Shown here: piece by piece, positions 3,156 to 40,214 of the stretch
Layout: every line of letters begins with the position of its first letter
Numbering within the stretch: the stretch's first letter is position 1
NCBI GenBank assembly: GCA_963836145.1
Contig: CAWIIJ010000012.1
Span: forward strand, 107,142-171,141
Direction: 5' to 3'
DNA length: 64,000 bases
DNA from: an uncultured Acidobacteriota bacterium
GTDB lineage: Bacteria; Acidobacteriota; Terriglobia; Acidiferrales; UBA7541
The notes under the pieces: model-generated
What the model was told of the DNA's origin: nothing
The model's database searches: none
The model's input: the letters and a program-made list of their open reading frames with translations, nothing else
Position numbers and translations under genes: made by a program

Positions 3156-3293
3156 CCCCCGATCTTCGGTTTCGAACGGCTTCCCTGAAGGGAATTGGAT
3201 GTTCCCATTTTGCACATTGGCCCCTAATACGCTGCATTGACCAGCGTTCAAGCGAATGTTAGGCTTGAACCAGTGGCTTGTATTTACTGAGGG

Positions 3294-5755: not shown

Positions 5756-6991
5756 ATGGGCCGATTCACAGGCTTGCTGGGGTTGCTGACCATGCTCGGG
5801 CTGGCCTATTTGTTTTCGACCAACCGGCGCGCGATCAAGCTGAAATTGGTGATTTGGGGTTTGACTTTGCAGATCGCCTTCGCGTTTCTGGTGTTTTACT
5901 GGACGTTCGGGCAAATGCTTTTTTTTCGCGCCGGCAACGGAGTGAATAGGCTTCTCGCCTACACGTTTGTGGGATCGGAATTTGTGTTCGGTGAATTGGG
6001 CAAGCAGCGCTCCTCGATCGGATTCATCTTCGCATTTCAGGTTTTGCCGGCGATCATCTTCATCGCATCGTTGTTTGCATTGCTGTACTACCTCGGCATC
6101 ATGCAGGTGCTGATTCGCGGGGCGGCCTGGGTGATGCAGCGGGTGATGGGCGCGAGCGGCGCGGAATCCCTGAACGTCGCGGCGAGCATCTTCATGGGGC
6201 AGACCGAAGCGCCGCTGACGATCCGGCCATTCCTGCCGGACTTGACGCAATCCGAGCTGATGACCATCATGACCAGCGGCATGGCGCACGTGTCGGGCGG
6301 AATCATGGCGGCGTATATTGCTTTTGGAGTCGAGGCGCGGCACCTGCTGACGGCCGTTATCATGACGGCGCCGGGCACGCTGCTGATTTCCAAAATGCTG
6401 GTGCCGGAAACCGAGCAGCCCAAAACGATGGGCGTCGTGCACATGGAAAATGTGGAGCACGACTCGAATTTTTTGGCGGCCATCGCCCGCGGCACGGGCG
6501 AGGGGCTGGCCATGGCGGTGAACGTCGGCGCGATGCTGGTGGCGTTCCTGGCGCTCATCGCGCTGACCAACGGCATCATGGGCGGGATTCACAACTTCCT
6601 CGGCGGGCACGGCATTTTGTGGTTTCCTACCAGCCTGCAGCAGGTTTTCGGCTGGGCCTTCGCTCCGGTGGCGTTTATTATCGGCGTGCCATGGCATAAC
6701 TGCGTGCAGATTGGAAATCTGCTCGGCACGCGCATGGTGCTGAACGAATTGGTGGCCTTTTCGTTTCTGGGCCCCATGAAAGGCGCTCTCGACCCGCGCT
6801 CGTTTACCATCGCCACATTCGCGCTGTGCGGCTTTGCGAATTTCAGTTCCATTGGAATGCAGATCGGCGGCATCGGCGCGCTGGCGCCCAACCAGAAGAA
6901 CCAGCTGGCCAAGTTCGGCATCCGCGCGATGCTCGCCGGAACGATGGCGAACCTGATGTCCGCTTCGATCGTGGGGATGTTTTTGAAATGA
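5756..6991 (+). CDS. nupC: concentrative nucleoside transporter, NupC family
   Basis: Polytopic membrane protein with SIFMGQTEAPL, GMAHVSGG and CGFANFSSIG motifs. Confidence 0.9.
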   Translation: MGRFTGLLGLLTMLGLAYLFSTNRRAIKLKLVIWGLTLQIAFAFLVFYWTFGQMLFFRAGNGVNRLLAYTFVGSEFVFGELGKQRSSIGFIFAFQVLPAIIFIASLFALLYYLGIMQVLIRGAAWVMQRVMGASGAESLNVAASIFMGQTEAPLTIRPFLPDLTQSELMTIMTSGMAHVSGGIMAAYIAFGVEARHLLTAVIMTAPGTLLISKMLVPETEQPKTMGVVHMENVEHDSNFLAAIARGTGEGLAMAVNVGAMLVAFLALIALTNGIMGGIHNFLGGHGILWFPTSLQQVFGWAFAPVAFIIGVPWHNCVQIGNLLGTRMVLNELVAFSFLGPMKGALDPRSFTIATFALCGFANFSSIGMQIGGIGALAPNQKNQLAKFGIRAMLAGTMANLMSASIVGMFLK

Positions 6992-7854
6992 GCGCTTCCC
7001 GTACCGCAAAAGCAAAACCCAGCCAGGAATTTCTGCGCGCTGACGCTGCGGCAAAATTCATCCTGGGCAAAACAAAATTGCGTCCGCGTATCGGTTTGGT
7101 GCTGGGCAGCGGGCTGGGCGCCTTTGCGGACGGAATGGCCGGCGCCGCGCGCATCGAGTACAGGGCCATTCCGCACTTCCCGAGGTCAACCGCCATCGGG
7201 CATGCCGGGCGCATGGTGATCGGCCCGGTGACCGACGTGCCGGTCGCCGTGATGCAGGGGCGCGTGCACTTGTATGAGGGCTATTCACCGAGCGAAGTGA
7301 TTTTTCCGATTCGCGTAATGGCCCGCATGGGAATCGGGGCCGTGCTGATCACCAATGCCGCCGGCGGAATCAACACGAATTTCAGGCAGGGATCGCTGGT
7401 AGTTTTGCGCGATCACATCAATTTGCAGGGGCGGAATCCGCTGATCGGGCCGAACGACGAGCACTTCGGCGCACGCTTTCCCGACATGACGCAGGTGTAC
7501 TGGAAACCGTACCAGGCCGTGGCGCTGCAGGACGGCAAGCGCCTGGGAATTGAAATTGCCGAGGGCGTGTACGCGGCCATGACCGGACCTAGCTACGAGA
7601 CACCCGCGGAAATCCGCTACCTGCGCGCGATTGGCGCTGACGTTGTGGGAATGTCCACCGTGCCGGAAGTGATTGCCGCCGCGCACCTGGGAATTCGCGT
7701 GCTGGGAATTTCGTGCGTGACGAATATGGCCGCGGGAATTCTGGACCAGCCCATCACGACCGAAGAAGTCATGCAAACCGGCGAGCGCGTGAAGGCGGAC
7801 TTTGTAGCGCTGCTGCGGGCGGTGATTCCACGCATGAGCAAGGACCTGCCATGA
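6988..7854 (+). CDS. punA: purine nucleoside phosphorylase (trimeric PNP type)
   Basis: Track ORF 6826.. trimmed to ATG 6988, which overlaps the nupC stop as ATGA. Motifs GLVLGSGLG, HLYEGY and MSTVPEV. Confidence 0.9.
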   Translation: MSASRTAKAKPSQEFLRADAAAKFILGKTKLRPRIGLVLGSGLGAFADGMAGAARIEYRAIPHFPRSTAIGHAGRMVIGPVTDVPVAVMQGRVHLYEGYSPSEVIFPIRVMARMGIGAVLITNAAGGINTNFRQGSLVVLRDHINLQGRNPLIGPNDEHFGARFPDMTQVYWKPYQAVALQDGKRLGIEIAEGVYAAMTGPSYETPAEIRYLRAIGADVVGMSTVPEVIAAAHLGIRVLGISCVTNMAAGILDQPITTEEVMQTGERVKADFVALLRAVIPRMSKDLP

Positions 7855-8267
7855 ACGAGCATGACCGGGCGCGAAGTGCCGGCCATGACGCGCTGATCGC
7901 CGCGGCGCGCACCGCGCGCGAGCACGCCCATGCGCCCTACTCCAATTTCCGCGTAGGCGCTGCGGTGCGCGCGAAGTCCGGAAGAATTTTCACCGGCTGC
8001 AACGTCGAGAATGCCACATTCGGACTGACGCTGTGCGCCGAGCGCGTGGCCGTCTTCAAGGCCATTTCGGAGGGTGAGCGCGGGTTTGACGCCGTGGCCG
8101 TAGTTGCGGATACCGGCGTCCTGACGCCGCCCTGCGGCGCGTGCCGCCAGATTCTGTGGGAATTCTGCGGCGACGCCGAAGTGATCCTCGCGAACCTTGG
8201 CGGCAAGCTGGAACGCTATCGCATGTCGGAACTATTGCCGAAGCCGTTTGACGGTTCGTACTTGTGA
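7851..8267 (+). CDS. cdd: cytidine deaminase
   Basis: Track ORF 7713.. trimmed to ATG 7851, which overlaps the PNP stop as ATGA. Zinc motifs CAERVA and PCGACRQ. Confidence 0.9.
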   Translation: MNEHDRARSAGHDALIAAARTAREHAHAPYSNFRVGAAVRAKSGRIFTGCNVENATFGLTLCAERVAVFKAISEGERGFDAVAVVADTGVLTPPCGACRQILWEFCGDAEVILANLGGKLERYRMSELLPKPFDGSYL

Positions 8268-8336
8268 CGCGCGATTGGCCGACGCCGGCCGTTTCGCAAC
8301 TACCTCGATTCGATAATCCGTTTTGGACCATGGAGC

Positions 8337-8396
8337 GCCCGCTTTCAGGCGGGCATCTGCTCGGTTACAAAGTGTCCGCCTGAAGGCGGACGCTAC
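8337..8396. repeat. two REP-like hairpins with CTGAAG/CTTTCAG centres
   Basis: GCCCGC-TTTCAG-GCGGGC at 8337-8354 and GTCCGC-CTGAAG-GCGGAC at 8374-8391, followed by GCTAC. Confidence 0.8.
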
Positions 8397-8492
8397 AAAA
8401 GGTGCCAAATATGAGTTCTCACATGGACTCTTTCGGCCCTGGCGTTCCAAGGCTGCGCGCCGAACCAGCATCTATGAGATGGCTATGGCTTC

Positions 8493-9440
8493 TTAGTCGC
8501 GCGCCGAGGAGCGCTGGCGCTGGAGGCGCATGGCGGAGGTGCGCAGCGTATCGGCGACATTCTTGTTGCTGGTCATGAATTTCAGGTCCAGCGGCTTCAG
8601 GTGCGGCAAAAGGTGCAAGGTCACTTCCAGGGGCGTCTTGGGATTGAACATCAGGCCCCGAAGAATGCTGTAGTTCTTGCGGAATTTGCGGTTGCCGGCG
8701 ATCAGCCGAAGCGTCTCGTCGCTAAGGCTGGCCATGTTCGCGAACGATTCCACTTCCTGTTCGGATAATTGCGGCGATTGCAGGACGGCGCGTTGCACGA
8801 TCTTGCAGGGATCGCGGATCAGCAGGAGGCGCTCATCGCGGCCGCCCTTGAGCGCGCGCTGCACGCGCTCCACGACGCGCATGTGCGACAATTTTTGCAG
8901 CAGCGTTTGACGCTTTGCCGCGTCCTGCTCCGCCGCTTCCACAGCTTCCACGAAGGCTTCGATGGGTTCCGGCTCGGCGCGTTGCAACTCCAGCAGCTGC
9001 CCGCGCTGTTCGGCATTGATTACTGAGGAGGCAATAAGCTCCGCTACCAGCGCCGGCGAAGTGCTCAGCCGGTCGAGGTCCTCGAATAATTCTTGAACCG
9101 CGGTGACCGAGAGGTAGCGAATGACCGGCCGAAGAACTTCGATGGGGCAGGTGGTATTTTGGGCCAGTGCGTCCGCCACGCCGGGTCTGCGGGGAAACTC
9201 GGCGGCGCAGTAGGCGAACATTTCCGGCGCCGCTCCCGGCCGCGCCAGCGCCGTGAGCACATACTTCAGCGGCTGCGTCAGCAAAACGCCGGCAGCTTTT
9301 TGACGCACCGAGGAATCGGAATCTGCCGCCAGAACACAGAGGGTTTCAACGCGATTTTCCGGCTCGAGCGAAGCCGCATCGGCGCAAATTTCCAGCTTGC
9401 GTTCACGGGTCGCGCGGCCCGAACGAATTTCCTCGCGCAA
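8493..9440 (-). CDS. hypothetical alpha-helical repeat protein
   Basis: 315-aa ORF lying 7 nt downstream of rodZ on the same strand. No family recognised; HEAT-like repeats are possible. Confidence 0.6.
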   Translation of the reverse strand: MREEIRSGRATRERKLEICADAASLEPENRVETLCVLAADSDSSVRQKAAGVLLTQPLKYVLTALARPGAAPEMFAYCAAEFPRRPGVADALAQNTTCPIEVLRPVIRYLSVTAVQELFEDLDRLSTSPALVAELIASSVINAEQRGQLLELQRAEPEPIEAFVEAVEAAEQDAAKRQTLLQKLSHMRVVERVQRALKGGRDERLLLIRDPCKIVQRAVLQSPQLSEQEVESFANMASLSDETLRLIAGNRKFRKNYSILRGLMFNPKTPLEVTLHLLPHLKPLDLKFMTSNKNVADTLRTSAMRLQRQRSSARD

Positions 9441-9447
9441 TGCCGAA

Positions 9448-10332
9448 CTAATTTCCGCCTCCTGCGGCGCTCTTTAGAGCATCGCGTGTAAGAATGACCT
9501 TGCCGGAGTGGCCGGAAGGACCAATCGGCGCCAGCGTTTTTCCATTCATTTCGAGAGAAAGAGCGCCCGCGTCTTTTGCGGAGACCTGAAAACGGTCCTT
9601 GGCGGAAAAGGTCCGGTTCTCACCGGCTTTCATGGTGCCGGCAAAGACGCGGTTGGCGTCCGCGACCACCGTCACCTTGGTTTTCTTGTCTGCCTCGACC
9701 GTGAGTTCGAACGTATCGGCTGCCGGCGAAGTTGCATCCGCGGATGGCGATGTTGCCGGAGCGCCTGCGGACGAATCCGCGGCGGCCGGCGGCGGTCCCG
9801 TCGTTGCGTCCCCGGCAGCCGTAGCGGCGGGAGCGGAATCGCTGTGCGAAGGCGCAGCATCGGCCGCGGCCCTGCGTGGCCCGCCATTCGTGCTCACGGC
9901 GGAGGGCTCCGCATCTACCTGCACGGCCAGCGCTGGTTGCCGCGCGGCACGCCAAGCAAGTAGTCGTCGCGTTCCGAACCACGCTCCAACGAGCAGAGCA
10001 GCGATCACGACGGCGGAGATCGTCCAGGCCAACCAGGGGAACTCCGGCGTGACCGCCGGCGGACTGCCGGTCCACACCGGTACGCTTGGCCGGTCGCCGA
10101 CGACCAGAGTGTATTCCGCCACGATGCTTTCCTCGTCGAGCCCGAGATAACGGGCCACGGCACGCACAAATCCGCGATTGAAGACCCCGCCGGGGAGCTG
10201 GTCCCACTGCTCGTTTTCAATGGCTTCCAGAAAACGCGTGGCGATGCGCGTGGCGCCGGAAATCTCGTCCAGAGTGACGCCCCGCAGTTCGCGTTCGCGC
10301 CTGAGGTTTTCGCCGAAAGTGCCTTTGGTCAT
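9448..10332 (-). CDS. rodZ: cytoskeleton protein RodZ-like (HTH + TM + DUF4115-like domain)
   Basis: N-terminal HTH FGENLRRERELRGVTLDEIS..TRFLEAIE, a TM segment, a Pro/Ala-rich linker and a C-terminal beta domain. Confidence 0.85.
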   Translation of the reverse strand: MTKGTFGENLRRERELRGVTLDEISGATRIATRFLEAIENEQWDQLPGGVFNRGFVRAVARYLGLDEESIVAEYTLVVGDRPSVPVWTGSPPAVTPEFPWLAWTISAVVIAALLVGAWFGTRRLLAWRAARQPALAVQVDAEPSAVSTNGGPRRAAADAAPSHSDSAPAATAAGDATTGPPPAAADSSAGAPATSPSADATSPAADTFELTVEADKKTKVTVVADANRVFAGTMKAGENRTFSAKDRFQVSAKDAGALSLEMNGKTLAPIGPSGHSGKVILTRDALKSAAGGGN

Positions 10333-30609: not shown

Positions 30610-30623
30610 CACCGAAGGTTGTT
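30610..30623. repeat. 14-bp direct repeat, left copy (CACCGAAGGTTGTT)
   Basis: An identical 14-mer at 37797-37810 abuts the other inverted repeat. Confidence 0.9.
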
Positions 30624-30661
30624 GGGGTAGTGTACAGCGACGGCAAAATGCTCCCTCCCCC
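30624..30661 (+). repeat. 38-bp terminal inverted repeat, left (GGGGTAGTGTACAGCGACGGCAAAATGCTCCCTCCCCC)
   Basis: Perfect reverse complement of 37759-37796. Imperfect similarity continues ~90 nt inward, including a shared GGCGAGCGGCGAT. Confidence 0.92.
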
Positions 30662-30806
30662 CTTTCTGAGCGTTTATGGCCATGGCGAGCGGCGATTGCG
30701 TTGTTGCGGGTGCGCGGAATCGGGAGCGGGCGGTCCAGCAATGCAATGTAGAAGCGCGCGCTAGATAAACGTGTGGCGCGGCGGTGTGGGGGATGGCAGA
30801 GGGAAT

Positions 30807-31532
30807 CTACTGTTTCAAAAGAAATGCCAGGAAATTGGAGTGAAATTTCTCAGCCAATTCATCAGCAGATCGCGTGTGAAAAGTTACATTCTCCCGAAGA
30901 GATGTTCTCGGGTCGAGAATGTTGAGACGGACCGCAAAAGTGATAGCTTCATGGCCCCCTGCAGGGGGAACGTTCCACCACGTAACCGTTTGCTTCCCGT
31001 CTTCATCGCCGAGTGCTATGTGGGCGTTGGCTCTGGCAAGTAATTCCTTCGGAACGAAGCGATTATAGATCGCAAACACGGGTTGCAGTTCAGCCACGTC
31101 TTCGAGTTCCTTGTATTTTTCAATTGGGATACCCGATGCCACTTGGCTGGCAATTGCAAGCGCGAACTCAATCGGTATGACTTTTAAGAAGGCGGTTAGT
31201 TGCCCTAAGAGTTCCTCGCGCCATACTTGCCACGAGTTGAAACTCACGCCCCAACCGGCCCAAAGCAGGATTTCATTGCGGGAGATTTTACATTGAAAGT
31301 ATGGGTTCGCTTCAGTCCCATCCCCTTTTACGAGACTAACTTGATTCGCGGGTTGTGCTTGAACAATTTCAGAGAACAGCTTCTCCCTTACGAGGAGATA
31401 CTCAGCCAGCGAGGCCATTAGGCTAGCGCCGAGGCATTCGAACTTGAAACTTATCGCACACTGGTACGTGTTTTTTCCGAAGTCAACAATAGCCAAAACA
31501 ATCTTCTCCGTACGAGCTAGGCTACGGCGCAC
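30807..31532 (-). CDS. hypothetical protein (241 aa), island cargo
   Basis: The long ORF overlaps the end of the reconstructed upstream gene by 11 nt. GTG start is uncertain. No family recognised. Confidence 0.55.
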   Translation of the reverse strand: MRRSLARTEKIVLAIVDFGKNTYQCAISFKFECLGASLMASLAEYLLVREKLFSEIVQAQPANQVSLVKGDGTEANPYFQCKISRNEILLWAGWGVSFNSWQVWREELLGQLTAFLKVIPIEFALAIASQVASGIPIEKYKELEDVAELQPVFAIYNRFVPKELLARANAHIALGDEDGKQTVTWWNVPPAGGHEAITFAVRLNILDPRTSLRENVTFHTRSADELAEKFHSNFLAFLLKQ

Positions 31533-31701
31533 CTTGCATCGCTAGTTTTTCCGCCGTTTTCGATTCTTGTCTTGTTTCGACACCTAACCCTTGCAAAGCT
31601 GCTGCTCTTATCTGGCGCGCCTCCAATGACATGAAGCGGCTTTCTTCCAAATGCTTTTGCCACTCGGTCAGATACCTGCCATAAGTTAACTGAAGTATTT
31701 G

Positions 31702-33135
31702 GAAATTGTCCCCGGTTTAGTTGAAAGTGGCGGCTCTCGACTTCGGGCACCTTATGCGACCTGCTCCTGCTGAGTCAATAACGGATTCAGTTTGCGCTGC
31801 AGGAGTTCCAGTTCCCGGAAGCCTTTCACCTTTCGGAATTTCTTTTCCGCTTCAAGTAATCCGGTGGCCGTCCAGCGCAGCGCGTGGTCCCCGGCTCGCC
31901 AGCGTTTCACATTCCGGGCCACGCGCTCGACCGTGGAAAGGCACGACTCGATGGGATTGCTCGAAGCCAACGTCTGCCGTAGCAGCCCTCCCACGCCCAG
32001 CCGGTGCACGGTGAGAGTTTCGTCCAACCCTTCTTCCAGGCTGTGTGCTGCGCTCGGATTGATGCGCTCCAGTTGCCGGAAGATTTTTTCAAGTTCCGCT
32101 TTGGCCTCCGCGTAGCCGGTCATCGCGTAGGCGTTGCGGATTCTTCGATCCGTATCTCCCTGGGCGCTCTTGGGCAAATGCTCTTTCACGTTCCGCCGCT
32201 TGTGGATCTGGCAGCGCTGCACTTCGGCCCGTTTGCCGAACACCCGCTCGATCCCCGCGCGCAGTGCCTTGGCCCCGTCGATCACGAACAAGTAGCGTCT
32301 CTCTGGGTTTAGGCCCCGTGCTACCAGGTCTTCCAGCAGTTCTTTGACCACGGTGGTGTTCTCCGTCGCGCCCTGCCAGAGTCCCAACACCTGCTTTTTC
32401 CCGCTCGTTTCGATGCCCAGCGCCACGACCAACACCTGCTTGCCCAGATGAATCCCGTCGATCAAGATCGCCACCAGATCCAGTTCCTCCAGTCTTTTCT
32501 CGTAGAGCTTTTTCAGTTGTGCCGCGCTGGCCGCCACGAACTGGCGGCTCACACTGGACTTCTCGATCCCGTAGCCCTCCAGCACGCTGTCCACCGCACG
32601 GTGATAGTTCCGCGAGGTCAGCCCGGCCACGATCCCTTCCCGCACCGCCCGCTGCCGTCGACCGTCGTGTTGCAGCCGCGCGTAACTGTCCAGCTGCACT
32701 TCTTCCCCTTGACGCGTGCGCACCCGCGGACGCTGCACCGCTACTTTCTGCCCAGCAAACACCACGTAGCCCGATTGCTGACCCCATCGCAAGCAACTCG
32801 ACGCCGCATCCGGTTGGTGGCGCGGCCCTACGCGTCGCATCACTTCATCTTCGATCACGGCACGAATGATCTTCAACCCCGCCAGCCCGGTCAGGTGTTC
32901 GACCTCTGGCTGCAACTCCTCCCACACCTCCACCAGCGGCAGCGGTAACCGCACCGCCACTTCTTTGCTTCCCAGCACCTCGAACTTCTTCGTGGACTTC
33001 TTCCCACTGCTCTGGTATCTGTCGGCCATAGCGGCTCTCCTCTCTAAAAAGAGTTCTCATCCCGGACTCTATCCGAGTCCGGGCCGAGAGCCGCTACTTC
33101 CTTCTTCAGGTTTCAACTAAAGGCGGGACAACTTC
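31702..33135 (-). mobile_element. IS256-family insertion sequence (1434 bp)
   Basis: Ends GAAATTGTCCCCGGTTTAGTTGAAAG and GAAGTTGTCCCGCCTTTAGTTGAAAC (reverse complement), flanked by the 8-bp TSD AGTATTTG at 31694-31701 and 33136-33143. Confidence 0.9.
31752..33029 (-). CDS. IS256 family (Mutator-type) transposase
   Basis: 425-aa ORF with the typical IS256 length and sequence character (...LIDGIHLGKQVLVVALGI..., ...VQRCQIHKRRNV...). Confidence 0.9.
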   Translation of the reverse strand: MADRYQSSGKKSTKKFEVLGSKEVAVRLPLPLVEVWEELQPEVEHLTGLAGLKIIRAVIEDEVMRRVGPRHQPDAASSCLRWGQQSGYVVFAGQKVAVQRPRVRTRQGEEVQLDSYARLQHDGRRQRAVREGIVAGLTSRNYHRAVDSVLEGYGIEKSSVSRQFVAASAAQLKKLYEKRLEELDLVAILIDGIHLGKQVLVVALGIETSGKKQVLGLWQGATENTTVVKELLEDLVARGLNPERRYLFVIDGAKALRAGIERVFGKRAEVQRCQIHKRRNVKEHLPKSAQGDTDRRIRNAYAMTGYAEAKAELEKIFRQLERINPSAAHSLEEGLDETLTVHRLGVGGLLRQTLASSNPIESCLSTVERVARNVKRWRAGDHALRWTATGLLEAEKKFRKVKGFRELELLQRKLNPLLTQQEQVA

Positions 33136-33718
33136 AGTATTTGAGGAATCAAGATTCTGGCGTAAGCATTCTGTGGTAACTCTTCTAAACTTTTCTCTAG
33201 TTGGAGCGTAAGTAAACGAGTCTTACCTATGCCTGATGAGCCGAGAATAAAAACATTGGGACGCATACCTTGATATCTAAGACGCCCCCAATCCTGCTGC
33301 AGCAACCCGCTCGGTATCACGTGTTGCGCCGAAGATATTCCGAGCACCTGTGACCAAGCTTCTTCCTCGTCAGGCTGGACCGTCGATGAAATATCGCCCG
33401 GCAAATCAACGACGAAACTTTCCGGCAGTTTTTCCATTTGGTGATCGAGGTCGGCGGGGGATAAAACACACATTTTGTCTTCGGCAGGTGGTGCAACTGG
33501 GTGCAAGACTCCCCTGACTGCATCTAGGATCGGTCGCACCAACGCAAGCACTCCCCAAAAAACGAGCGTGAGCGCAAGTCCTACTCCGACCCCAGTCACA
33601 ATAAGAACAAGAAGTTCAACCATTTTTCAAATCCTCTAACCTACCCCCGTGTGTACCCATAATATATGATGACCGAAATGATCGCTATCGACGCGACTCC
33701 GAAGACGCAACTCCAACT

Positions 33719-34243
33719 TTGCGAAAACCGACGAGCCAAAGGTATCCTGCTACTCGATTGACTCAAAGTCGCCGACGCCAAGCTAAGGGTAGCTCGTTTG
33801 ATCCAGGAGCCGAAAATACACTTCGTCCGCTGCGTATCTGTCGAATTTGCGGCGCGACCATTAAGCGGGGTCAGACCTACTGTGCATCGTGCGCTGTCGG
33901 AGTTTCGAGGGAAAGGTTGATCGAGGCCGCAAAACTCGGGCGCATTGCTACGCTCACTCTTGAAGCAGAGACCCTCCGCGCTAAGACCCAACGAAAGCAC
34001 GCTGCCGCCATAGCTGCATGGCAGCCCTCCGAGTTGCCGGAATGGCTTACTGAGGAAGCTTACCGCAAGAAGATTCAACCCGCGCTTGCTGAAATAACTG
34101 TTCCCGCTATCGCAACTGCTCTCGGCATCTCGGAGCCCTACGCTACAGATATTCGTGCGGGCCGACGCATCCCACATCCAAGGCATTGGCTAGCGCTTAC
34201 AAGGCTTGTTGGTGTTTCGGCCAATTCTTCCCAATCTGAGTAA
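33719..34243 (+). CDS. hypothetical zinc-ribbon + HTH-like protein (174 aa), island cargo
   Basis: CRICGATIKRGQTYCASCA (CxxC..CxxC) and a C-terminal IATALGISEPYATDIRAGRRIPHPRHW. TTG start is uncertain. Confidence 0.55.
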   Translation: MRKPTSQRYPATRLTQSRRRQAKGSSFDPGAENTLRPLRICRICGATIKRGQTYCASCAVGVSRERLIEAAKLGRIATLTLEAETLRAKTQRKHAAAIAAWQPSELPEWLTEEAYRKKIQPALAEITVPAIATALGISEPYATDIRAGRRIPHPRHWLALTRLVGVSANSSQSE

Positions 34244-34427
34244 AGTGTTAGTTTCAACTTGGGATCGGGGCAGGACTTATATCGCTCCTGTTATGTATTA
34301 TCGTGATAACGTATATCCAGGTACTATAAGAGATCAATGACTGGACCTTCCAACTCGGTAACTGTCCCCCGGTGCGGTCAGAATAAACGTGTGGTAATGT
34401 TGGCATAATCGGAAAGAAGGTGAAGGC

Positions 34428-35960
34428 GTGTCAACATCCGTCCAAGAGCTTCGCACGATTGTTCAAGAGAGTCTGCGTGTGCAGCGCGATAGTCCTGATC
34501 CGGTTGATTACATTGATGCAGCAAATGCGGTAAGTGATGCCGTCGCTCGACAGAACCATGTAATCTTCGGCAGGCGTGGATGCGGCAAGACTCTATTGAT
34601 GCATTTTTCCGCGAGAAAAGTCCGCGCTGATGTTCGGGTCGTCTACGTTAATTGTGAGGATTATAAGCAGCATTCCTTCCCTGACGTACTGATTGAGATT
34701 CTTGATCAATTATTTCGAGAGCTTGAACAGAACCTGCCTGGCTGGTTTGGAAAGAAAAGGCAATCGAGAGAGCTGATTCAGGAAATTCGAAATGAGCTTG
34801 CGAAATTGAAGCGGAACCCCGACGAACTTAAGTCTAAAGTCCGAGAATCTGTGTCGTCGGAGGGTAGTGTCAATGCGTCGGTGGCAGTTTTGGCAAGCGG
34901 TATCGGGATAGGGGCCGCTGCGCAGAGTGCTCAAAAAAGCGCAGTCGAAAAGGTCTATGAGCAAAACGATAGCAAAATTCATGAACTAGATCTATTGCTC
35001 CCGAGATTGAAGGAAAGGATTCGGCAATTCTTTTCGATTTCCGATGATGTCAAAAGCGTTTTTTTAGCGCTGGACGACTTCTACCATCTTCCGCGAGCTA
35101 TCCAACCTTACGTGGCTGATTACATTCACAGATTATGCAAAGATGTCCCGATATACTTCAAGATTGCGACATTGAGGCACGCGAGCATGCTCTATGCGGA
35201 TCGCAACAAGCAGCCGATAGGAGTTCAGGAACATCACGATTATCAGCCTATAAATATCGACTTCACGCTTGCCGACTTTAGCCGCACGTCTTCCCAATTG
35301 AGAAAGATTTTGTACGCATACGGGGAGAAAGCAGGAATGTCGCGCGATGAAATTGATGATTTGTTTATGGGTGAAGGATTTGAAAGATTGGTGCTCGCGG
35401 CTGGTGGTGTTCCAAGGGATTTCTTATCCCTGCTTTTGGAAGCCCTCTCTCCTAAGCCAATCGGCGACGAGAGAATTGGAAAGGACGATGTCCGGCAATT
35501 GAGTTTGGGTGTTTTTCAGAGACGAATCGCGGAATTAAAAGTCGATTCTGAAGAACAGGATCAAGATACCCTGCTCAAGGGGATTCATGCGATTACGACG
35601 TTTTGTTTGGAAAAGAAGGAAAATGTTTTCTTGGTGCCTGACCAAGCACTCCAAGAACAAAACGGGCTAAGAGAGCTGCTCAATAGGTTGTTGGACTACC
35701 GAATTATTCATTCCGTGGGGATTGCGCTCACCCACAAGAGCAACCCGGGCACCTTCACTGCCTACATGCTCGATATTGGCGCGTATGCTAAATATAGGAA
35801 ACTCGAAGGTCGCTTCAAAGAAATTGATGTTACAGCCCCTGATGCCCGAGAACGGTGCCGGAATTCGCCTGTGCTTGACCGTGACACATTATTGCAGCTC
35901 CTCGGCGTGGCTCCTGCGAATCCCGAGGTGGACCTTCCAGACGAAGATCACGCATCCTAA
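34428..35960 (+). CDS. ORC/Cdc6-like AAA+ ATPase (510 aa), island cargo
   Basis: Walker A GRRGCGKT (aa 48-55), Walker B VFLALDDF (aa 211-218) and sensor-2-like GGVPRDF (aa 326-332). The C-terminal part is wHTH-like. GTG start behind GAAGGTGAAGG. Confidence 0.8.
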   Translation: MSTSVQELRTIVQESLRVQRDSPDPVDYIDAANAVSDAVARQNHVIFGRRGCGKTLLMHFSARKVRADVRVVYVNCEDYKQHSFPDVLIEILDQLFRELEQNLPGWFGKKRQSRELIQEIRNELAKLKRNPDELKSKVRESVSSEGSVNASVAVLASGIGIGAAAQSAQKSAVEKVYEQNDSKIHELDLLLPRLKERIRQFFSISDDVKSVFLALDDFYHLPRAIQPYVADYIHRLCKDVPIYFKIATLRHASMLYADRNKQPIGVQEHHDYQPINIDFTLADFSRTSSQLRKILYAYGEKAGMSRDEIDDLFMGEGFERLVLAAGGVPRDFLSLLLEALSPKPIGDERIGKDDVRQLSLGVFQRRIAELKVDSEEQDQDTLLKGIHAITTFCLEKKENVFLVPDQALQEQNGLRELLNRLLDYRIIHSVGIALTHKSNPGTFTAYMLDIGAYAKYRKLEGRFKEIDVTAPDARERCRNSPVLDRDTLLQLLGVAPANPEVDLPDEDHAS

Positions 35961-37516
35961 TGCGAACAACGACCTGTATCTTTGTCATCATCGCTTCGCT
36001 AGCGGCCATTCCACTAGCGGCTCAAAACGCACCACCTCACCGACTATCGCGAGCGGTAGTTGATCCCGTGGAACTTAGCGGTCCGCCGAAAAAGCTTGTT
36101 CTTTTAACGCCAACGAAGCGAGCGTTCGCCCAAAGTGCGGTACTGGAAAAACTAAATTCGAAGGACCCATCAGTCCTAGCGTCCGCATTGAGCGACATTA
36201 CATCCTTCATTCAGCAAGACCCGACTGATACGGACCTTTTTAATCTCAGGGCAACCATCTCCTGTGAAATCGCGGGCAGCAATAAAGAGGTAATGCTTAA
36301 CGACATTAAGACGTCCATCAAACTTTGGAAGCCAAATGAGGACAGCGCGTTCTATTCTTTAAAGAACCACTACGCACTGAAAGCGAAAATCGACTTTCTG
36401 TTGGGGCGGTATGCAGATGCTCTAAATGATCTCGACGCGGGTATGCGGATCGACTACGCGGACGCCACTGAAATGTTCAATAATGGCAACGTTAAACCAG
36501 ATGAGCCGACAGCTATGCCGTGCATGTGGTCACAGGCTGATGTAAACAAATTGGCAGAATTGTTTCCGAGGGATTACCGAACGTCGCTTTACGTTGGCCT
36601 ATACGGGCTTGAATTTTCCAAGTGGTCTTTGGACACTGACTATCAACCCATCCTGAAAGCATTTGAACGCGCGGCTGAACTTAATCCGTCTTCGGCCCTA
36701 CCATCATATTTCACTGCGAGACCGTACGTTGCTGGCGGCATAGGGGGTTTGATGTCAGAAGCGAATGCCACATGTCTCGGCGACGTGGTACCACGCACGA
36801 AGGCGTGCCTCGAATTGGATGAAATCCACCGCACTGGCGTTCGAATTCTCACAAAGGCAATCGCCGCTGAACGGACATTTGAGCCTGCTTATGCTCTTCG
36901 TGCCGAGGCTTACCTTCAATTGCGTGAGAATCGGCAAGCAATTCGGGACTACACGGAAGCATTGGAACTCGCCCCGAACGCTAACCTGTATGGAGACCGT
37001 GGTTTGGCAGAGTCAGAGTTAAAGGAATATCAAGCGGCTATTCTCGATTACACCAAGAGGATTGCTGAGGGCTGCGAAGAGCCGTGTTCAGCCTATGAAA
37101 ATCGCGCAAACGTTTATTTGAAACTCCGCGATTATCCACATGCAATCAATGACCTCGGCCATGCCATTAGGAACTTTCTGGCGGGCACGATCTATGGATT
37201 CAATATCGAGCAATTCCGCATAATCTATCCCGAATATGACGCCGTAGCTGATGACGTATTGTGCGAGAAGCTTCGAGTGCTGTTTAACCCGCAAATGAGC
37301 TACGCGGATTATTCCAAACAGTTCTTGGTTAACGCGAAGGAATTTGATGATTTTGTCTTGCCAGAACTGTTTCTGAAACGGGGTGATGCATACGCCGATA
37401 TGGGAGACATCGCCAGCGCAAATCGAGAATATGATCGTGTGGCTGCGGGATTCCCGAAGTGGGCTGAAAACGCATTCGTGACGCGCAACGGAAAACGCGT
37501 TCGCGTCCGCCAGTAA
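35960..37516 (+). CDS. secreted TPR-repeat protein (518 aa), island cargo
   Basis: ATG overlaps the ATPase stop (TAATG). Signal peptide MRTTTCIFVIIASLAAIPLAA/QN. TPR-like repeats include AYALRAEAYLQLRENRQAIRDYTEALEL. Confidence 0.8.
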   Translation: MRTTTCIFVIIASLAAIPLAAQNAPPHRLSRAVVDPVELSGPPKKLVLLTPTKRAFAQSAVLEKLNSKDPSVLASALSDITSFIQQDPTDTDLFNLRATISCEIAGSNKEVMLNDIKTSIKLWKPNEDSAFYSLKNHYALKAKIDFLLGRYADALNDLDAGMRIDYADATEMFNNGNVKPDEPTAMPCMWSQADVNKLAELFPRDYRTSLYVGLYGLEFSKWSLDTDYQPILKAFERAAELNPSSALPSYFTARPYVAGGIGGLMSEANATCLGDVVPRTKACLELDEIHRTGVRILTKAIAAERTFEPAYALRAEAYLQLRENRQAIRDYTEALELAPNANLYGDRGLAESELKEYQAAILDYTKRIAEGCEEPCSAYENRANVYLKLRDYPHAINDLGHAIRNFLAGTIYGFNIEQFRIIYPEYDAVADDVLCEKLRVLFNPQMSYADYSKQFLVNAKEFDDFVLPELFLKRGDAYADMGDIASANREYDRVAAGFPKWAENAFVTRNGKRVRVRQ

Positions 37517-37758
37517 AAGGTTGTGGGGAATATTGCTTTCCCGGTGCGGGCCGAAGCGGCAAATACGGCAATTATCAAGAAATTGATGCCCGGCGATCTC
37601 GTTTTCGGCCACATGAAGGGACTCAGATACGTCGGGTTCGGACCCGTCAGCAACCGCCGCGCGCGCGCTTCTTTACCGCGCCCCGCACCGCCCGCCTTCC
37701 GCTCTGTCCACACTCAATGGCCCATCGCCGCTCGCCTGGGCAAACATGGCAGAAATAT

Positions 37759-37796
37759 GGGGGAGGGAGCATTTTGCCGTCGCTGTACACTACCCC
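37759..37796 (-). repeat. 38-bp terminal inverted repeat, right
   Basis: Perfect reverse complement of 30624-30661. Confidence 0.92.
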
Positions 37797-37810
37797 CACC
37801 GAAGGTTGTT
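37797..37810. repeat. 14-bp direct repeat, right copy (CACCGAAGGTTGTT)
   Basis: Identical to 30610-30623. Confidence 0.9.
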
Positions 37811-37834
37811 CGCTGCCAACGCCTCCCCTATACT
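37806..37834 (+). promoter_or_regulatory. possible promoter TTGTTC-N17-TATACT for the lptC-like operon
   Basis: The -35 overlaps the right direct repeat. The -10 at 37829-37834 lies 32 nt before ATG 37866. Weak match. Confidence 0.3.
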
Positions 37835-37865
37835 CGGCGTCTAAGTCTTCGAGGCGCTTGAACGG

Positions 37866-40214
37866 ATGCGAAATAGCGAAGCGCAGAGATATGCGCGGTG
37901 GTCGCTCGCAGCGGCCGGACTTCTGGCCGCGGTAGTGGCCGGCGTGTACCTGCGAAACATCTGGCTGGCGCGCCAGGCGGAAAAGAAGGCCCCGCCAGCG
38001 GTGCCTGCCAGCGTCGAGCAGCGTTCGAACGAGTTTTCCTACTCGAAAGTCGATGGGCAGCGCACGATTTATACGGTGAAGGCCTCGCGCACCACGGAAT
38101 TCAAGGAAGGGAGCAGGGATCTTCTCGAAGACGTGACCATCCTGGTGTACGGGAAAACCGGAACGCGCAACGATACCTTGCGCACACGCGCCTGCGATTT
38201 CATCTCCAATACCGGGAAAATAAGTTGCGAGGGAGAAGTCCAAATCAGCCTGCAGGCTGCCGGCGCGCCGCAAGCAATCGCCAATGCGATCCAGGTGGCG
38301 ACCTCCGCCTTGACGTTTGACAGGAATTCCGGCCAGGCGCGCACCGACCAGCCGGTTACGTTCCACTGGCCCGCGGGAGAAGGCAGCGCCGTGGGCGTGA
38401 GCTACGATTCGAACAGCGGAACGCTCCAGCTGCTGCGGAACGTCCAACTGAATCTTTCGCCTCCTTCTGCCGTGATCCCCGCCAAAATCAACGACACCGA
38501 CGAGAAGACGGTTCGCGTTTCAGGCGACAGCATGTCATTCCAGCGCGACGCCCGAGTCGTGGTGATTGACGGAAAAGTCCACTCGCAGCAGGCATCGCAC
38601 GAGCTTTACGCGGATCAGTTGCTGCTGGAGTTGGATTCGCAATTTCAAGCCCGGCGTTTTGTGGCCAGCGGACATCCGCAATTGCGCGACCTGAATCCGC
38701 AAGGGCCCGTCACCCTGAGCGCCGACGAAATTGCCGCGGAGCTCAGGCCCGACGGTTCCGTCGCTTCGGTCCAGGCGAAGGGAAATGTGCACGGGACGCG
38801 CGTCACGCCCGTCGGCGGCGACGCCATCGACGCCGGGCGCGTGCAGGTGAACCTCGCGACGGCCGACAACTTGCCGCGCCTGCTGACGGCGAGCGATGGC
38901 GTCATGCTTACCTCGACCAGCGCATCATTCAATGGGGGCACGCGCCACGTCGAAAGCGACGCGCTGGACGTCAACTTTTCAAACGATCCCGCCACGGGCC
39001 AGACGTTGGTGGAGAGCGTAAATACGCTCGCGCCAGCCAGCGTCGATTGGCAGAACGTCGCGTTGGTGAACGGCAAGCCGGTGCCTCAATCGACGCGCAT
39101 GTCGGGCAAGCAGATGAATCTGAAATTCGACGGCCAGAACCAGTTGCAGGAGCTGGTGAACACCGGCAGCGTGGAAGTAACACGCAAGCTGGGCGACGCG
39201 CCGGAGGAGACCACTACTTCGCGCGAACTTACCGCCGTGTTCGACAAAACGGGCCAATGGTCGACCATCGATCAAACAGGCGAAGTGCATTTCCACGACG
39301 GCCAGCGCGCGGGGCAGGGAAACCGGGCCCACCTGGATCGTGCGAGCGACGCGCTCACGCTCGACGGCTCGGTGGTCTTTTCCGACTCCACCACGCGAAC
39401 CACGGCGCAATCCGTATCCTTCGTTCAACCGATGAGCGCCTTGCGCGCGGATGGGCATGTGCTCACGACGGATCTGCGCCCCACGACGTCCGGCATCTCA
39501 AATCTCGCGCCGGAGCCGGCGCACATTTCGGCGGAACGCCTGGTGGCGGATACGGCGCGAGGTCACGCGGTGTACTCGGGTAAAGCGAGAATGTGGCAGG
39601 GACAATCGGTGATCCAGGGTGACTCCATCGAACTGGACAGCGCGACACACACGTTGCAGGCCAAGGGCCACGTAGACGGCGTTTTTCCACAGGCAGCCTG
39701 GAGCCCGAAGCCACGGGACGCCTCCGAGGTAACTTCGAGCAAGCCAACAAAGCAGTTATCGAAGTCCAGCGGAATTTCCAGCCCTTCGGATGCTCGCGCC
39801 TCCACGCAGTTGGGCCACGTTTACGGAGGATTACTTACGTATTGGGAGGCGGAATCGCGCGGCCGGATCGAACACGATGCCAGAGTGGATTCCGAGCGCG
39901 GCTCGATCCAAGCCGACCGGATCGATCTCTATTTCTCTGACGCGGGCTCAGGAGGCGCCAAACAATTGTCGCGGTCAGTGGCCAGCGGAGATGTGACCGT
40001 GCAGCAGCAGGATCGCCGCGGAACTTCAAATCGGGCCGAGTATACGGCCTCGGAAGGCAAGTTTGTTCTTTCGGAAGGGAAACCAACTTTATATAGCTCA
40101 ACTGGGGACACCACCACGGGGCGTCAATTGACCTTCTATTTTGCTGATGATAGGATTCTTGTGGATTCGGCGGATGGTTCGAAGACCGTGACGCTTCACG
40201 AGGTCGGGAAATGA
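37866..40214 (+). CDS. LptC-like anchor fused to multiple LptA/OstA-like repeats (782 aa)
   Basis: N-terminal TM segment WSLAAAGLLAAVVAGVYL, then an LptC-like segment, then repeated OstA-type patterns (e.g. AERLVADTARGHAVYSGKARMWQG.., ADRIDLYFSD..). Sits directly upstream of lptB. Confidence 0.75.
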   Translation: MRNSEAQRYARWSLAAAGLLAAVVAGVYLRNIWLARQAEKKAPPAVPASVEQRSNEFSYSKVDGQRTIYTVKASRTTEFKEGSRDLLEDVTILVYGKTGTRNDTLRTRACDFISNTGKISCEGEVQISLQAAGAPQAIANAIQVATSALTFDRNSGQARTDQPVTFHWPAGEGSAVGVSYDSNSGTLQLLRNVQLNLSPPSAVIPAKINDTDEKTVRVSGDSMSFQRDARVVVIDGKVHSQQASHELYADQLLLELDSQFQARRFVASGHPQLRDLNPQGPVTLSADEIAAELRPDGSVASVQAKGNVHGTRVTPVGGDAIDAGRVQVNLATADNLPRLLTASDGVMLTSTSASFNGGTRHVESDALDVNFSNDPATGQTLVESVNTLAPASVDWQNVALVNGKPVPQSTRMSGKQMNLKFDGQNQLQELVNTGSVEVTRKLGDAPEETTTSRELTAVFDKTGQWSTIDQTGEVHFHDGQRAGQGNRAHLDRASDALTLDGSVVFSDSTTRTTAQSVSFVQPMSALRADGHVLTTDLRPTTSGISNLAPEPAHISAERLVADTARGHAVYSGKARMWQGQSVIQGDSIELDSATHTLQAKGHVDGVFPQAAWSPKPRDASEVTSSKPTKQLSKSSGISSPSDARASTQLGHVYGGLLTYWEAESRGRIEHDARVDSERGSIQADRIDLYFSDAGSGGAKQLSRSVASGDVTVQQQDRRGTSNRAEYTASEGKFVLSEGKPTLYSSTGDTTTGRQLTFYFADDRILVDSADGSKTVTLHEVGK

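What the first reader, a model, noticed from the sequence alone, without database searches (positions are those of the whole stretch)
34428..37516. Island cargo: ORC/Cdc6-like AAA+ ATPase translationally coupled to a secreted TPR protein (candidate conflict/defence module)
The 510-aa ATPase has Walker A GRRGCGKT, a ~150-aa insertion, Walker B VFLALDDF, a Cdc6-style sensor-2 GGVPRDF and a likely C-terminal winged helix.

Its TAA stop overlaps the ATG of a 518-aa TPR protein (TAATG at 35958-35962). That protein has a clear Sec signal peptide (IFVIIASLAAIPLAA/QN).

A 174-aa zinc-ribbon/HTH-like ORF (33719-34243) lies upstream on the same strand. NTPase-plus-TPR pairings on mobile islands are a recurrent theme in anti-phage and conflict systems. 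However, a cytoplasmic AAA+ coupled to an exported TPR partner does not match any named system I can recall.
Basis: partly seen in the sequence, partly recalled or inferred. Interest (0 to 1): 0.65.

Follow-up and report, generated by a model that had tools for sequence, protein, structure and literature searches.

The report
Two unrelated cargo genes in a decayed casposon
The ATPase and the TPR gene are real, but they are two independently mobile genes joined only in this genome, inside the worn-out remains of a casposon (a Cas1-driven transposon) from a large, apparently undescribed family in soil Acidobacteriota.

Summary

- **No co-occurrence.** None of 83 loci encoding ATPase relatives has a TPR relative within 8 kb. 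That includes the 92% and 89% identical copies. None of 23 TPR loci has the ATPase.
- **Exact junction.** DNA homology to ATPase loci stops at the stop codon. Homology to TPR loci starts at the ATG. The TAATG overlap is a lineage-specific junction of two cassettes.
- **The "zinc-ribbon/HTH ORF".** It is the last 166 residues of a roughly 513-aa Cas1 casposase.
- **The island.** It spans 30624-37796, with 38-nt perfect terminal inverted repeats and a perfect 14-bp target-site duplication. Intact relatives of about 12-16 kb carry PolB, Cas1-ZBD-HTH, the same repeats and 14-15-bp duplications. One sits at the orthologous chromosomal site.
- **Position of the two genes.** They occupy the hypervariable cargo slot downstream of cas1, which elsewhere often holds defence genes.
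- **The ATPase.** It is a stand-alone ORC/Cdc6-clade AAA+ protein with a winged helix (Pfam PF24389). It is uncharacterised, rare, scattered across phyla and has no conserved partner. A conflict role is plausible but unproven.

The parts
30610..30623 (.). Left copy of the 14-bp target-site duplication, CACCGAAGGTTGTT
   Evidence: It is identical to 37797-37810 and directly abuts the terminal inverted repeat.
30624..30661 (+). Left terminal inverted repeat of the casposon remnant, GGGGTAGTGTACAGCGACGGCAAAATGCTCCCTCCCCC. Weaker similarity continues to about 30780.
   Evidence: It is a 38/38 match to the reverse complement of 37759-37796. The same repeat bounds intact Cas1/PolB elements in L094, L154 and L098.
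30807..31532 (-). 241-aa ORF of unknown function inside the element
   Evidence: ORF listed. No Pfam, NCBIfam, PADLOC or PHROGs hit. No relative in the other casposon loci.
31702..33135 (-). IS256/Mutator-family insertion sequence (transposase 31752-33029), flanked by the 8-bp duplication AGTATTTG (31694-31701 and 33136-33143)
   Evidence: Pfam Transposase_mut at E=2e-30. Inverted repeats at 31702-31726 and 33111-33135. Duplication seen.
33136..33623 (-). 5' part of a P-loop (GSSGIGKT) gene with an N-terminal hydrophobic segment, interrupted by the IS
   Evidence: ORF 33117-33623 runs into the IS end. After removing the IS in silico, the ORF is only 219 aa.
33719..34243 (+). 3' remnant of the casposase (Cas1) gene. 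Only the C-terminal Zn-binding and HTH part remains, and the whole catalytic Cas1 domain is missing.
   Evidence: 82.5% identical to residues ~346-511 of the 513-aa Cas1 in L170. 57% identical to residues 343-508 of the 516-aa Cas1 in L080. Alignment. No Cas1 N-terminal similarity anywhere in the window.
34428..35960 (+). Stand-alone ORC/Cdc6-clade AAA+ ATPase with a C-terminal winged helix (510 aa); cargo gene
   Evidence: Pfam PF24389. Motifs invariant in 25 homologues. Model and fold matches. Family spread and solo status.
35960..37516 (+). Probably exported, Cys-rich all-TPR solenoid protein (518 aa); a second, independent cargo gene
   Evidence: Pfam TPR hits. Model pLDDT 86 and all-alpha. 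Only generic TPR fold matches. Family and its contexts.
37759..37796 (-). Right terminal inverted repeat. Weaker similarity continues inward to about 37640.
37797..37810 (.). Right copy of the 14-bp target-site duplication, CACCGAAGGTTGTT
   Evidence: It is orthologous to the duplicated target of the intact casposon in L170.

Best explanation
**The island (shown).** The segment lies in the cargo part of a decayed, non-autonomous casposon at 30624-37796.
- The element keeps both terminal inverted repeats and its 14-bp target-site duplication.
- It has lost PolB, the small core genes and the catalytic part of its Cas1 integrase.
- It has picked up an IS256 element.

**The two genes (shown).** Downstream of the cas1 remnant sit two unrelated accessory genes. 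Each occurs alone elsewhere. Here they have been joined exactly stop-to-start. The TPR gene has therefore lost its own leader. It can now be translated only behind the ATPase. This is a local accident of cassette shuffling, not a conserved system.

**How the ATPase probably works (inferred).** It works on its own.
- The intact Walker A/B motifs, sensor-2 arginine and lid should make it an ATP-gated oligomerising switch, as in ORC/Cdc6.
- The enlarged helical hairpin sits at the initiator-specific position.
- The strongly conserved winged helix should bind DNA.
- The family is rare, scattered across phyla and nearly invariant in sequence. It turns up in cargo positions of a casposon (twice) and at the integrase end of a prophage.
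- The most likely use is as a stand-alone factor in conflicts between mobile elements or phages and the host, for example by occupying or marking incoming DNA.
- That last step is a guess from position, worth about 0.35.

**The TPR protein (inferred).** It is an exported protein-binding scaffold of Acidobacteriota with no demonstrated link to the ATPase.
For: **Ends of the element**
- 38-nt perfect inverted repeats plus a perfect 14-bp duplication.
- The same repeat and 14-bp duplications bound 12.9-14.7-kb elements in L094, L154 and L098.
- A de novo scan finds such ends in 28 of 81 Cas1 loci.

**Core genes of the family**
- Cas1 with a C-terminal Zn-binding domain and HTH.
- A family B polymerase in 72-75 of 79 loci. 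Pfam DNA_pol_B_2 hits 22 of 31 copies, and the Exo I-III and A/B/C motifs are visible in the consensus.

**Orthologous site**
- L170 carries an intact 13.9-kb copy between the same flanking genes, with the orthologous duplicated target.

**No pairing of the two genes**
- ATPase loci: 0 of 83 have a TPR relative.
- TPR loci: 0 of 23 have the ATPase.
- Homology breaks exactly at 35960.

**ATPase is a solo gene**
- No neighbour cluster is shared by more than 4 of 79 loci.
- No Pfam family occurs in more than 2 of 114 neighbours.
- There is no conserved small ORF nearby.

**Cargo slot**
- It is hypervariable.
- It holds DNA methylases, SIR2/Dsr1/ThsA-like proteins, LmuA, a CAP12 TIR domain, nSTAND, HsdR and Vsr.

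**ATPase anatomy and mobility**
- Anatomy.
- Prophage copy next to tRNA-Thr and the integrase.
Against: - No experiment and no named defence family supports a conflict role. PADLOC and NCBIfam give only sub-threshold P-loop matches.
- The protein has no recognisable effector domain.
- It is unusually conserved for a defence gene: 55-92% identity across phyla, winged helix included.
- Many of its neighbours elsewhere are housekeeping genes.
- Only 2 of about 80 casposons examined carry it.
- The exact stop/start junction could have been selected for co-expression. A newly evolved functional link in this lineage cannot be excluded.
Confidence: 0.72

Rival explanations
1. The ATPase and the exported TPR protein, perhaps with the Zn-ribbon/HTH ORF, form one functional two-gene conflict or defence system that spans the cytoplasmic membrane.
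For: The stop and start overlap in TAATG, and there is no Shine-Dalgarno-like sequence before the TPR ATG. Both genes lie in a low-G+C mobile island. The cargo slot of related elements often holds defence genes.
Against: - The pair occurs nowhere else. 0 of 83 ATPase loci has the TPR gene, including the 92% and 89% identical copies. 0 of 23 TPR loci has the ATPase.
- TPR relatives have their own leader with a GAAGGA ribosome-binding site.
- The Zn-ribbon/HTH ORF is a dead casposase fragment.
- PADLOC gives no significant hit.
Confidence: 0.06
2. The ATPase serves the casposon itself. It could be a replication initiator for the PolB, or a MuB/TnsC-like target selector for the Cas1 integrase.
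For: - It lies directly downstream of cas1, on the same strand, in two casposons whose Cas1 C-termini are only 57% identical (window and L080).
- ORC/Cdc6 proteins are replication initiators.
- MuB filaments are among the fold matches (rank 34).
Against: - 0 of 79 other casposon loci encodes it.
- It is found in Proteobacteria, Planctomycetota, Bacteroidota and candidate-phyla bacteria (Falkowbacteria, Moranbacteria). In none of those 79 loci is there Cas1 or PolB within 8 kb.
- The two casposon-borne copies are 92% identical, although their Cas1 genes are far apart. That points to cassette transfer rather than co-evolution.
Confidence: 0.05
3. The ATPase is an ordinary accessory DNA-binding ATPase, such as a transcriptional or chromosome-structure regulator. 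It has no role in genetic conflict, and its presence in mobile elements is incidental hitch-hiking.
For: - Sequence conservation is very high, including the predicted DNA-reading helix.
- There is no effector domain.
- Many neighbours are housekeeping genes.
- There are no close relatives on plasmids, only 2 partial hits at about 26% identity, and only one hit in phages.
Against: - Relatives were confirmed at only 153 places among 185,579 species genomes, scattered over many phyla. That pattern indicates horizontal transfer, not a host regulon.
- There is no conserved neighbour or target gene.
- It recurs in cargo or moron positions of mobile elements.
Confidence: 0.17

Closest known systems
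Family 3 (bacterial) casposons, especially AceAut-C1 of Ca. Acetothermum autotrophicum (Krupovic et al. 2014, PMC4046053)
   Same: - A Cas1 integrase with both a Zn-binding domain and an HTH fused to its C-terminus.
- A family B DNA polymerase.
- Terminal inverted repeats.
- A target-site duplication of about 15 bp. The paper reports a median of 15, and the repeats here are 14-15 bp.
- Variable cargo with restriction-modification-type genes.
   Different: - The window copy is a wreck: no PolB, no catalytic Cas1 domain and an IS256 inserted.
- The acidobacterial family has its own repeat sequence (GGGrTAG...) and an apparent GTCAA target motif.
- It is multi-copy and abundant, with 424 confirmed stretches in species-representative genomes.
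- The PolB hit is to the 'organellar and viral' model DNA_pol_B_2.
- No HNH gene was identified. I did not test for one specifically.
- Placement in a Cas1 phylogeny was not done.
[quoted passage not shown]
   Same: - Domain order: AAA+ core, lid with sensor-2 arginine, then a C-terminal winged helix.
- A helical insert after strand 2.
- The best PDB fold matches are 7jpq_D, 5uj7_D and 1fnn_A.
   Different: - Sequence similarity is marginal. TIGR02928 scores 19.5 bits against a cut-off of 181.
- The insert is enlarged to a helical hairpin of about 120 aa with a disordered tip.
- An extra helical region and a conserved C-terminal tail are present.
- There is no link to an origin or to replication genes, and the gene is rare in bacteria rather than universal.
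ORC/Cdc6-clade ATPases of bacterial defence: BrxC and BrxD (BREX), DUF499, DUF6079 (PMC12839542), and RdrA of RADAR
   Same: They belong to the same AAA+ clade. BrxD is likewise a stand-alone ATPase without extra enzymatic domains. RdrA appears among the fold matches (ranks 13-17).
   Different: All of those act in multi-gene operons with fixed partners (PglZ, a methylase, a helicase, RdrB). This ATPase has no fixed partner, and no PADLOC model of these systems matches it.
DS-41 gene 1 (validated in DefensePredictor, PMC13092281), mad8 (PADLOC) and the Sll1717-family P-loop ATPases (NCBIfam NF047389)
   Same: There is weak similarity over the N-terminal P-loop region, including the start of the insert.
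   Different: All scores are far below the family cut-offs: 20.8 against 370 bits, 18.2 bits, and 46.5 against 75 bits. This is not membership.

Membership tests
ORC/Cdc6-clade AAA+ ATPase (Pfam PF24389 ORC-CDC6-like) | Score above the curated family threshold | tested here: met
   44.8 bits against a cut-off of 27. The match covers only profile positions 29-294 of 571. Homologues carry the same precomputed domain.
ORC/Cdc6-clade AAA+ ATPase (Pfam PF24389 ORC-CDC6-like) | Intact Walker A (GxxGxGK[ST]) and Walker B (hhhhDD/E) | tested here: met
   GRRGCGKT and LALDDF. R49, R50, G51, C52, K54, D216 and D217 are invariant in 25 sequences.
ORC/Cdc6-clade AAA+ ATPase (Pfam PF24389 ORC-CDC6-like) | Helical insert after strand 2 (initiator-specific / helix-extension-helix insert) | tested here: met
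   In the model, helices 86-204 lie between strand 69-75 and strand 210-216. The insert is much larger than in ORC/Cdc6.
ORC/Cdc6-clade AAA+ ATPase (Pfam PF24389 ORC-CDC6-like) | Lid domain with sensor-2 arginine, and an arginine finger | tested here: inconclusive
   GGVPRD, with invariant R330, sits at the start of lid helix 329-339. Candidate finger residues R250 and R259 are invariant but lie in a low-confidence loop, 249-277.
ORC/Cdc6-clade AAA+ ATPase (Pfam PF24389 ORC-CDC6-like) | C-terminal winged helix-turn-helix | tested here: met
   Helix 414-423 followed by a beta-hairpin at 427-435 and 442-448, pLDDT 76-90. Full-length fold alignments to ORC4 and Cdc6.
ORC/Cdc6-clade AAA+ ATPase (Pfam PF24389 ORC-CDC6-like) | Acts as a replication initiator at an adjacent origin | not testable with these tools
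   No replication genes recur nearby. Origin function needs an experiment.
Casposon | Cas1-family integrase (casposase) gene | tested here: not met
   The window keeps only the C-terminal 166 aa, the Zn-binding domain plus HTH. The catalytic domain is absent. Intact genes are present in related elements.
Casposon | Family B DNA polymerase gene | tested here: not met
   There is no PolB relative in the window. It is present in 72-75 of 79 related loci.
Casposon | Terminal inverted repeats | tested here: met
   30624-30661 and 37759-37796, 38/38 complementary. The same sequence forms the ends of L094, L154 and L098.
Casposon | Target-site duplication of about 14-15 bp | tested here: met
   CACCGAAGGTTGTT on both sides. 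Twenty-eight related elements have perfect 14- or 15-bp duplications. The literature median is 15 (PMC4046053).
Named anti-phage defence systems (PADLOC-DB 2.0, NCBIfam anti-phage models) | Significant match of either protein to a system component | tested here: not met
   Best ATPase hit is mad8 at E=3.5e-4, 18 bits. Best TPR hit is E=0.038. DS41_1 scores 20.8 bits against a cut-off of 370. DefenseFinder was not available.
   0 of 83 ATPase loci and 0 of 23 TPR loci.

The most novel reading that the evidence does not exclude
The PF24389-type ORC/Cdc6-like ATPase could be a new single-gene immunity or exclusion factor with no recognisable effector. It would act by ATP-dependent assembly on foreign DNA through its conserved winged helix. 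It would be shuttled between phyla as cargo of mobile elements. Those vehicles would include an abundant, still active and apparently undescribed casposon family of Acidobacteriota, which integrates at GTCAA-type sites and carries defence genes downstream of cas1.
Probability: 0.2. Interest if true: 0.65.

Novelty: new member of a known kind. Interest (0 to 1): 0.4.

Why it matters
**The finding as written.** The proposed cytoplasmic-ATPase/exported-TPR system is not a system, so the finding as written is of limited interest. Adjacency, and even a stop/start overlap, inside a mobile island can be a recent accident.

**The casposon context.** This is worth more.
- In the 2014 survey, bacterial casposons were known from only a handful of genomes (PMC4046053).
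- Here a single family gives 424 confirmed Cas1 stretches in species-representative genomes, almost all Acidobacteriota among the 79 listed.
- Several genomes carry more than one copy.
- Terminal repeats reach 100% identity and the 14-15-bp duplications are perfect.
- There is an apparent target motif.
- The cargo slot is rich in defence genes.

If confirmed, this would give a large natural data set, and candidate enzymes, for studying Cas1-mediated transposition in bacteria. It would also show casposons acting as vehicles for defence genes.

**The ATPase family.** It is a clean, well-conserved, uncharacterised stand-alone ORC/Cdc6-like protein that could be tested directly.

Tried and rejected
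- **tRNA and Rfam scans.** Neither found anything in or around the island, so the 76-nt inverted repeat is not an RNA gene.
- **Promoter and terminator scan** of 33500-37900 was no better than shuffled sequence.
- **Phage and structure libraries.** PHROGs gave no hit for the ATPase. A profile search of PDB sequences gave only coiled-coil noise. The BFVD fold search gave only generic clamp-loader matches.
- **First TPR locus scan.** A single-protein scan returned only one locus. I repeated it with an alignment.
- **IS-interrupted gene.** I tested whether the (-) strand P-loop ORF and the 241-aa ORF were one gene split by the IS. Removing the IS and one copy of its 8-bp duplication gives only a 219-aa ORF. 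Neither piece has relatives in other casposon loci. I left them as unexplained remnants.
- **Casposon repeat elsewhere.** I looked for the repeat in all ATPase and TPR loci and found none. Two loose hits in L175 and L183 were chance matches.
- **Small partner gene.** I looked for a conserved small ORF (25-120 aa) within 600 nt of the ATPase in 79 loci and found none.
- **ATPase as a casposon core function.** Rejected on distribution.
- **Ends of the L080 element.** L080, the other casposon that carries the ATPase, showed no detectable terminal repeats. Its ends are unresolved.
Full report
**Observation**

The ORF list confirms three ORFs:
- ATPase 34428-35960 (+, GTG start, 510 aa)
- TPR protein 35960-37516 (+, 518 aa)
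- a 174-aa ORF at 33719-34243 (+)

The ATPase stop and the TPR start overlap as TAATG at 35958-35962. G+C falls to 0.49-0.53 over about 33000-37500, against roughly 0.60 elsewhere in the window.

The ATPase matches Pfam PF24389 ORC-CDC6-like at 44.8 bits, cut-off 27. Walker A GRRGCGKT, Walker B LALDDF and GGVPRDF are present. Their key residues are invariant or nearly so in 25 homologues that are 55-92% identical to it.

An AlphaFold model (mean pLDDT 72) shows:
- an AAA+ core
- a long helical hairpin (residues 86-204) inserted after strand 2
- a lid domain
- a winged helix at 400-448

The best PDB fold matches are ORC4, PABY2304, archaeal Cdc6, clamp-loader subunits and RdrA.

The TPR protein is modelled with pLDDT 86 as one continuous TPR solenoid. 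Residues 1-32 are unstructured and hydrophobic. It gives only generic TPR matches. Its relatives share the N-terminal hydrophobic segment ending in A-Q and six invariant cysteines. This fits export, although no signal-peptide predictor was available.

**Is the pair a module?**

*ATPase side.*
- The family is large and tightly conserved. There are more than 1,000 hits, and the best 120 are 55-92% identical, nearly all over their full length. A profile search finds 1,244 clusters (at 50% identity) with E up to 0.001.
- In one genome per species it is rare and scattered. Relatives were confirmed at 153 places among 185,579 species genomes. The phyla include Acidobacteriota, Proteobacteria, Planctomycetota, Verrucomicrobiota, Bacteroidota and candidate-phyla bacteria such as Falkowbacteria and Moranbacteria.
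- In the 79 loci fetched with 8-kb flanks, tblastn finds no relative of the TPR protein or of the Zn/HTH ORF.
- The closest copies are 92% and 89% identical. One is followed by a rhomboid protease gene and the other by rpoC.
- No neighbour cluster is shared by more than 4 loci.
- No Pfam family occurs in more than 2 of 114 immediate neighbours.
- No small ORF is conserved within 600 nt.

*TPR side.*
- The family has 161 hits. In species-representative genomes its relatives come almost entirely from Acidobacteriota.
- In 23 loci there is never an ATPase, Cas1 or PolB relative within 6-8 kb.
- The first four loci inspected include integrases, an IS91-family transposase, a DNA methylase and a NACHT protein among their neighbours.

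*The junction.*
- DNA similarity to ATPase loci ends at 35960-35962. Similarity to TPR loci begins at 35960-36002.
- TPR relatives have their own leader with a GAAGGA ribosome-binding site. Here that leader is replaced by the ATPase 3' end.

The overlap is therefore a lineage-specific joint between two cassettes. PADLOC gives no significant hit for either protein.

**What the island is**

*The Zn-ribbon/HTH ORF is a casposase fragment.*
- It is 57% identical to residues 343-508 of a 516-aa Cas1-domain protein that sits upstream of the ATPase in L080.
- It is 82.5% identical to the end of the 513-aa Cas1 of L170.
- The alignment shows that it holds only the Zn-binding CxxC...CxxC motif and the HTH.
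- The catalytic domain, with its conserved E, H and D/E residues (my reading of the Cas1 motifs), is absent from the window.

*The island has transposon ends.*
- A 14-bp direct repeat CACCGAAGGTTGTT lies at 30610-30623 and 37797-37810.
- It abuts 38-nt perfect inverted repeats that begin GGGGTAGTGTACAGCGACGGC.
- The same repeat, with perfect 14-bp duplications, bounds elements of 14.3, 14.7 and 12.9 kb around full-length Cas1 genes in L094, L154 and L098.

*The wider family.*
- A de novo scan finds repeat-plus-duplication ends in 28 of 81 Cas1 loci. The duplications are 14 bp in 24 loci and 15 bp in 4. Nearly all carry GTCAA at one end.
- The Cas1 family gives 424 confirmed stretches in species-representative genomes. 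The 79 loci listed are almost all Acidobacteriota, and several contigs carry two copies.
- The conserved core is a large divergent gene, two small ORFs, one variable ORF and Cas1.
- The large gene is a family B polymerase. Pfam DNA_pol_B_2 hits 22 of 31 copies. Exo I-III motifs and motifs A (DFTSxYP), B (KILANSxSYG) and C (CDTDS) are readable in the consensus.

*These are casposons.*
- Cas1 with a C-terminal Zn-binding domain plus HTH is the architecture reported for the family 3 casposon AceAut-C1. The published median duplication length is 15 bp (PMC4046053).
- L170 comes from a related genome. It carries an intact 13.9-kb copy between the same 563-aa gene and lptC-lptB-rpoN, with the orthologous duplicated target.

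*State of the window element.*
- It is 7,173 bp long.
- It lacks PolB, the small core genes and the Cas1 catalytic domain.
- It carries an IS256-family insertion with an 8-bp duplication inside a P-loop gene remnant.

**Where the two genes sit**

They occupy the slot downstream of cas1. That slot is hypervariable among the 79 loci. In 119 genes sampled from it, I found:
- DNA methylases
- SIR2_2, Dsr1 and ThsA-like proteins
- LmuA
- a CAP12/Pycsar TIR domain
- an nSTAND NTPase
- HsdR, Vsr and ResIII
- RHS repeat proteins and protein kinases

These appear alongside many unknowns and some transposases. None of the 79 loci carries the ATPase or the TPR gene.

Only the window and L080/L081 have the ATPase behind cas1. 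Those two ATPases are 92% identical, while the Cas1 C-termini are 57% identical. This points to cassette exchange rather than co-descent.

**What the ATPase probably does**

*Shown.*
- It has an ORC/Cdc6-clade architecture with intact nucleotide-binding motifs.
- It has an enlarged insert at the initiator-specific position.
- It has a winged helix whose predicted recognition helix is almost invariant (R420, L421, D423, Y424, R425, I426 and H428).
- It has no enzymatic effector domain and no fixed partner.
- Its distribution is sporadic and cross-phylum.
- It has no close relatives on plasmids. There are only two partial hits at about 26% identity.
- The one phage-collection hit lies between tRNA-Thr and the integrase of a Bradyrhizobium prophage, where the gene is itself split by an IS1380 element.

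*Inferred.*
- It is an ATP-gated, oligomerising DNA-binding switch that acts alone.
- Its recurrent cargo position makes a conflict role (defence or exclusion) the best guess, at about 0.35.
- The high conservation and the lack of an effector keep a plain regulatory role open.
- A casposon-specific role is unlikely on distribution.
- Similarities to DS-41 gene 1, mad8 and the Sll1717 family are far below threshold. DS-41 is an experimentally validated system (PMC13092281), but membership is not supported.

**Novelty and verdict**

- The ATPase-TPR "module" is not a system.
- The ATPase belongs to a catalogued but uncharacterised Pfam family. All named relatives are "hypothetical protein", and no paper in the held library discusses the family.
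- The island is a new, decayed member of a known kind of element, the casposons.
- No paper in the held library links casposons with Acidobacteria in this sense. The acidobacterial family may therefore be undescribed, but a library search cannot prove that.
- Interest is moderate. It is low for the finding as posed and higher for the casposon context.

Noticed in passing
L090-L168 and L170 (for example L094 3475-17779, L154 2110-16851, L098 2981-15911, L170 1450-15349): An abundant casposon family in Acidobacteriota. Each element has PolB, two small ORFs and Cas1-ZBD-HTH, with inverted repeats starting GGG(G/A/T) and perfect 14-15-bp target duplications. There are 424 confirmed Cas1 stretches in species-representative genomes, and some contigs carry two copies. 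No matching description was found in the held literature.
   Followed up: partly
Target duplications of 28 elements; window 30610-30623 and 37797-37810: Almost all duplications start with GTCAA(A/G/T) or end with TTGAC, which suggests sequence-preferring integration. The window duplication ends in TTGTT and the L170 duplication in TTGTC, both near-motif variants.
   Followed up: partly
L170 1450-15349 compared with window 30624-37796: A related genome has an intact casposon at the orthologous site upstream of lptC, with the orthologous duplicated target. Its repeats are clearly diverged and its cargo differs (461-aa and 573-aa genes). This reflects either an old insertion followed by recombination, or repeated use of the same site.
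   Followed up: partly
Genes downstream of cas1 in L090-L168 (alignment A6): The cargo slot holds many defence-type genes: DNA methylases, SIR2/Dsr1/ThsA-like proteins, LmuA, a CAP12 TIR domain, an nSTAND NTPase, HsdR and Vsr. Casposons may act as defence-gene vehicles. No enrichment statistics were computed.
   Followed up: partly
window 31694-33143: An IS256/Mutator-family insertion sequence with 25-nt inverted repeats and the 8-bp duplication AGTATTTG. It interrupts a (-) strand gene that encodes an N-terminal hydrophobic segment and a P-loop (GSSGIGKT). After removing the IS, the ORF is still only 219 aa.
   Followed up: partly
L170 4877-5158 (-) and L170 3294-3374: The C-terminal region of the casposon PolB shows weak similarity to the Cas1 HTH region (23% over 100 aa, E=2e-5). 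This echoes what was reported for family 2 casposons. A short copy of the cas1 3' end, 81% identical over 27 aa, also lies elsewhere in the same element.
   Followed up: no
L169 882-4040 (Bradyrhizobium phage ppBdUSDA122-1, OP596612.1): The only phage-collection relative of the ATPase (50% identity) lies between tRNA-Thr and the integrase. It is split in two by an IS1380-family element.
   Followed up: partly
L080 719-9533: This is the other casposon that carries the ATPase, with PolB 719-3328 (-), Cas1 5694-7244 and ATPase 8001-9533. It has no detectable terminal repeats, and there is a 757-nt gap between cas1 and the ATPase. Its boundaries are unresolved.
   Followed up: partly
window 37866-40214: The gene just outside the right end encodes a 782-aa protein with an LptC match at the N-terminus and LptA-like repeats further on. 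It is followed by lptB and rpoN. The LptC-LptA-like combination in one polypeptide was not examined further.
   Followed up: no
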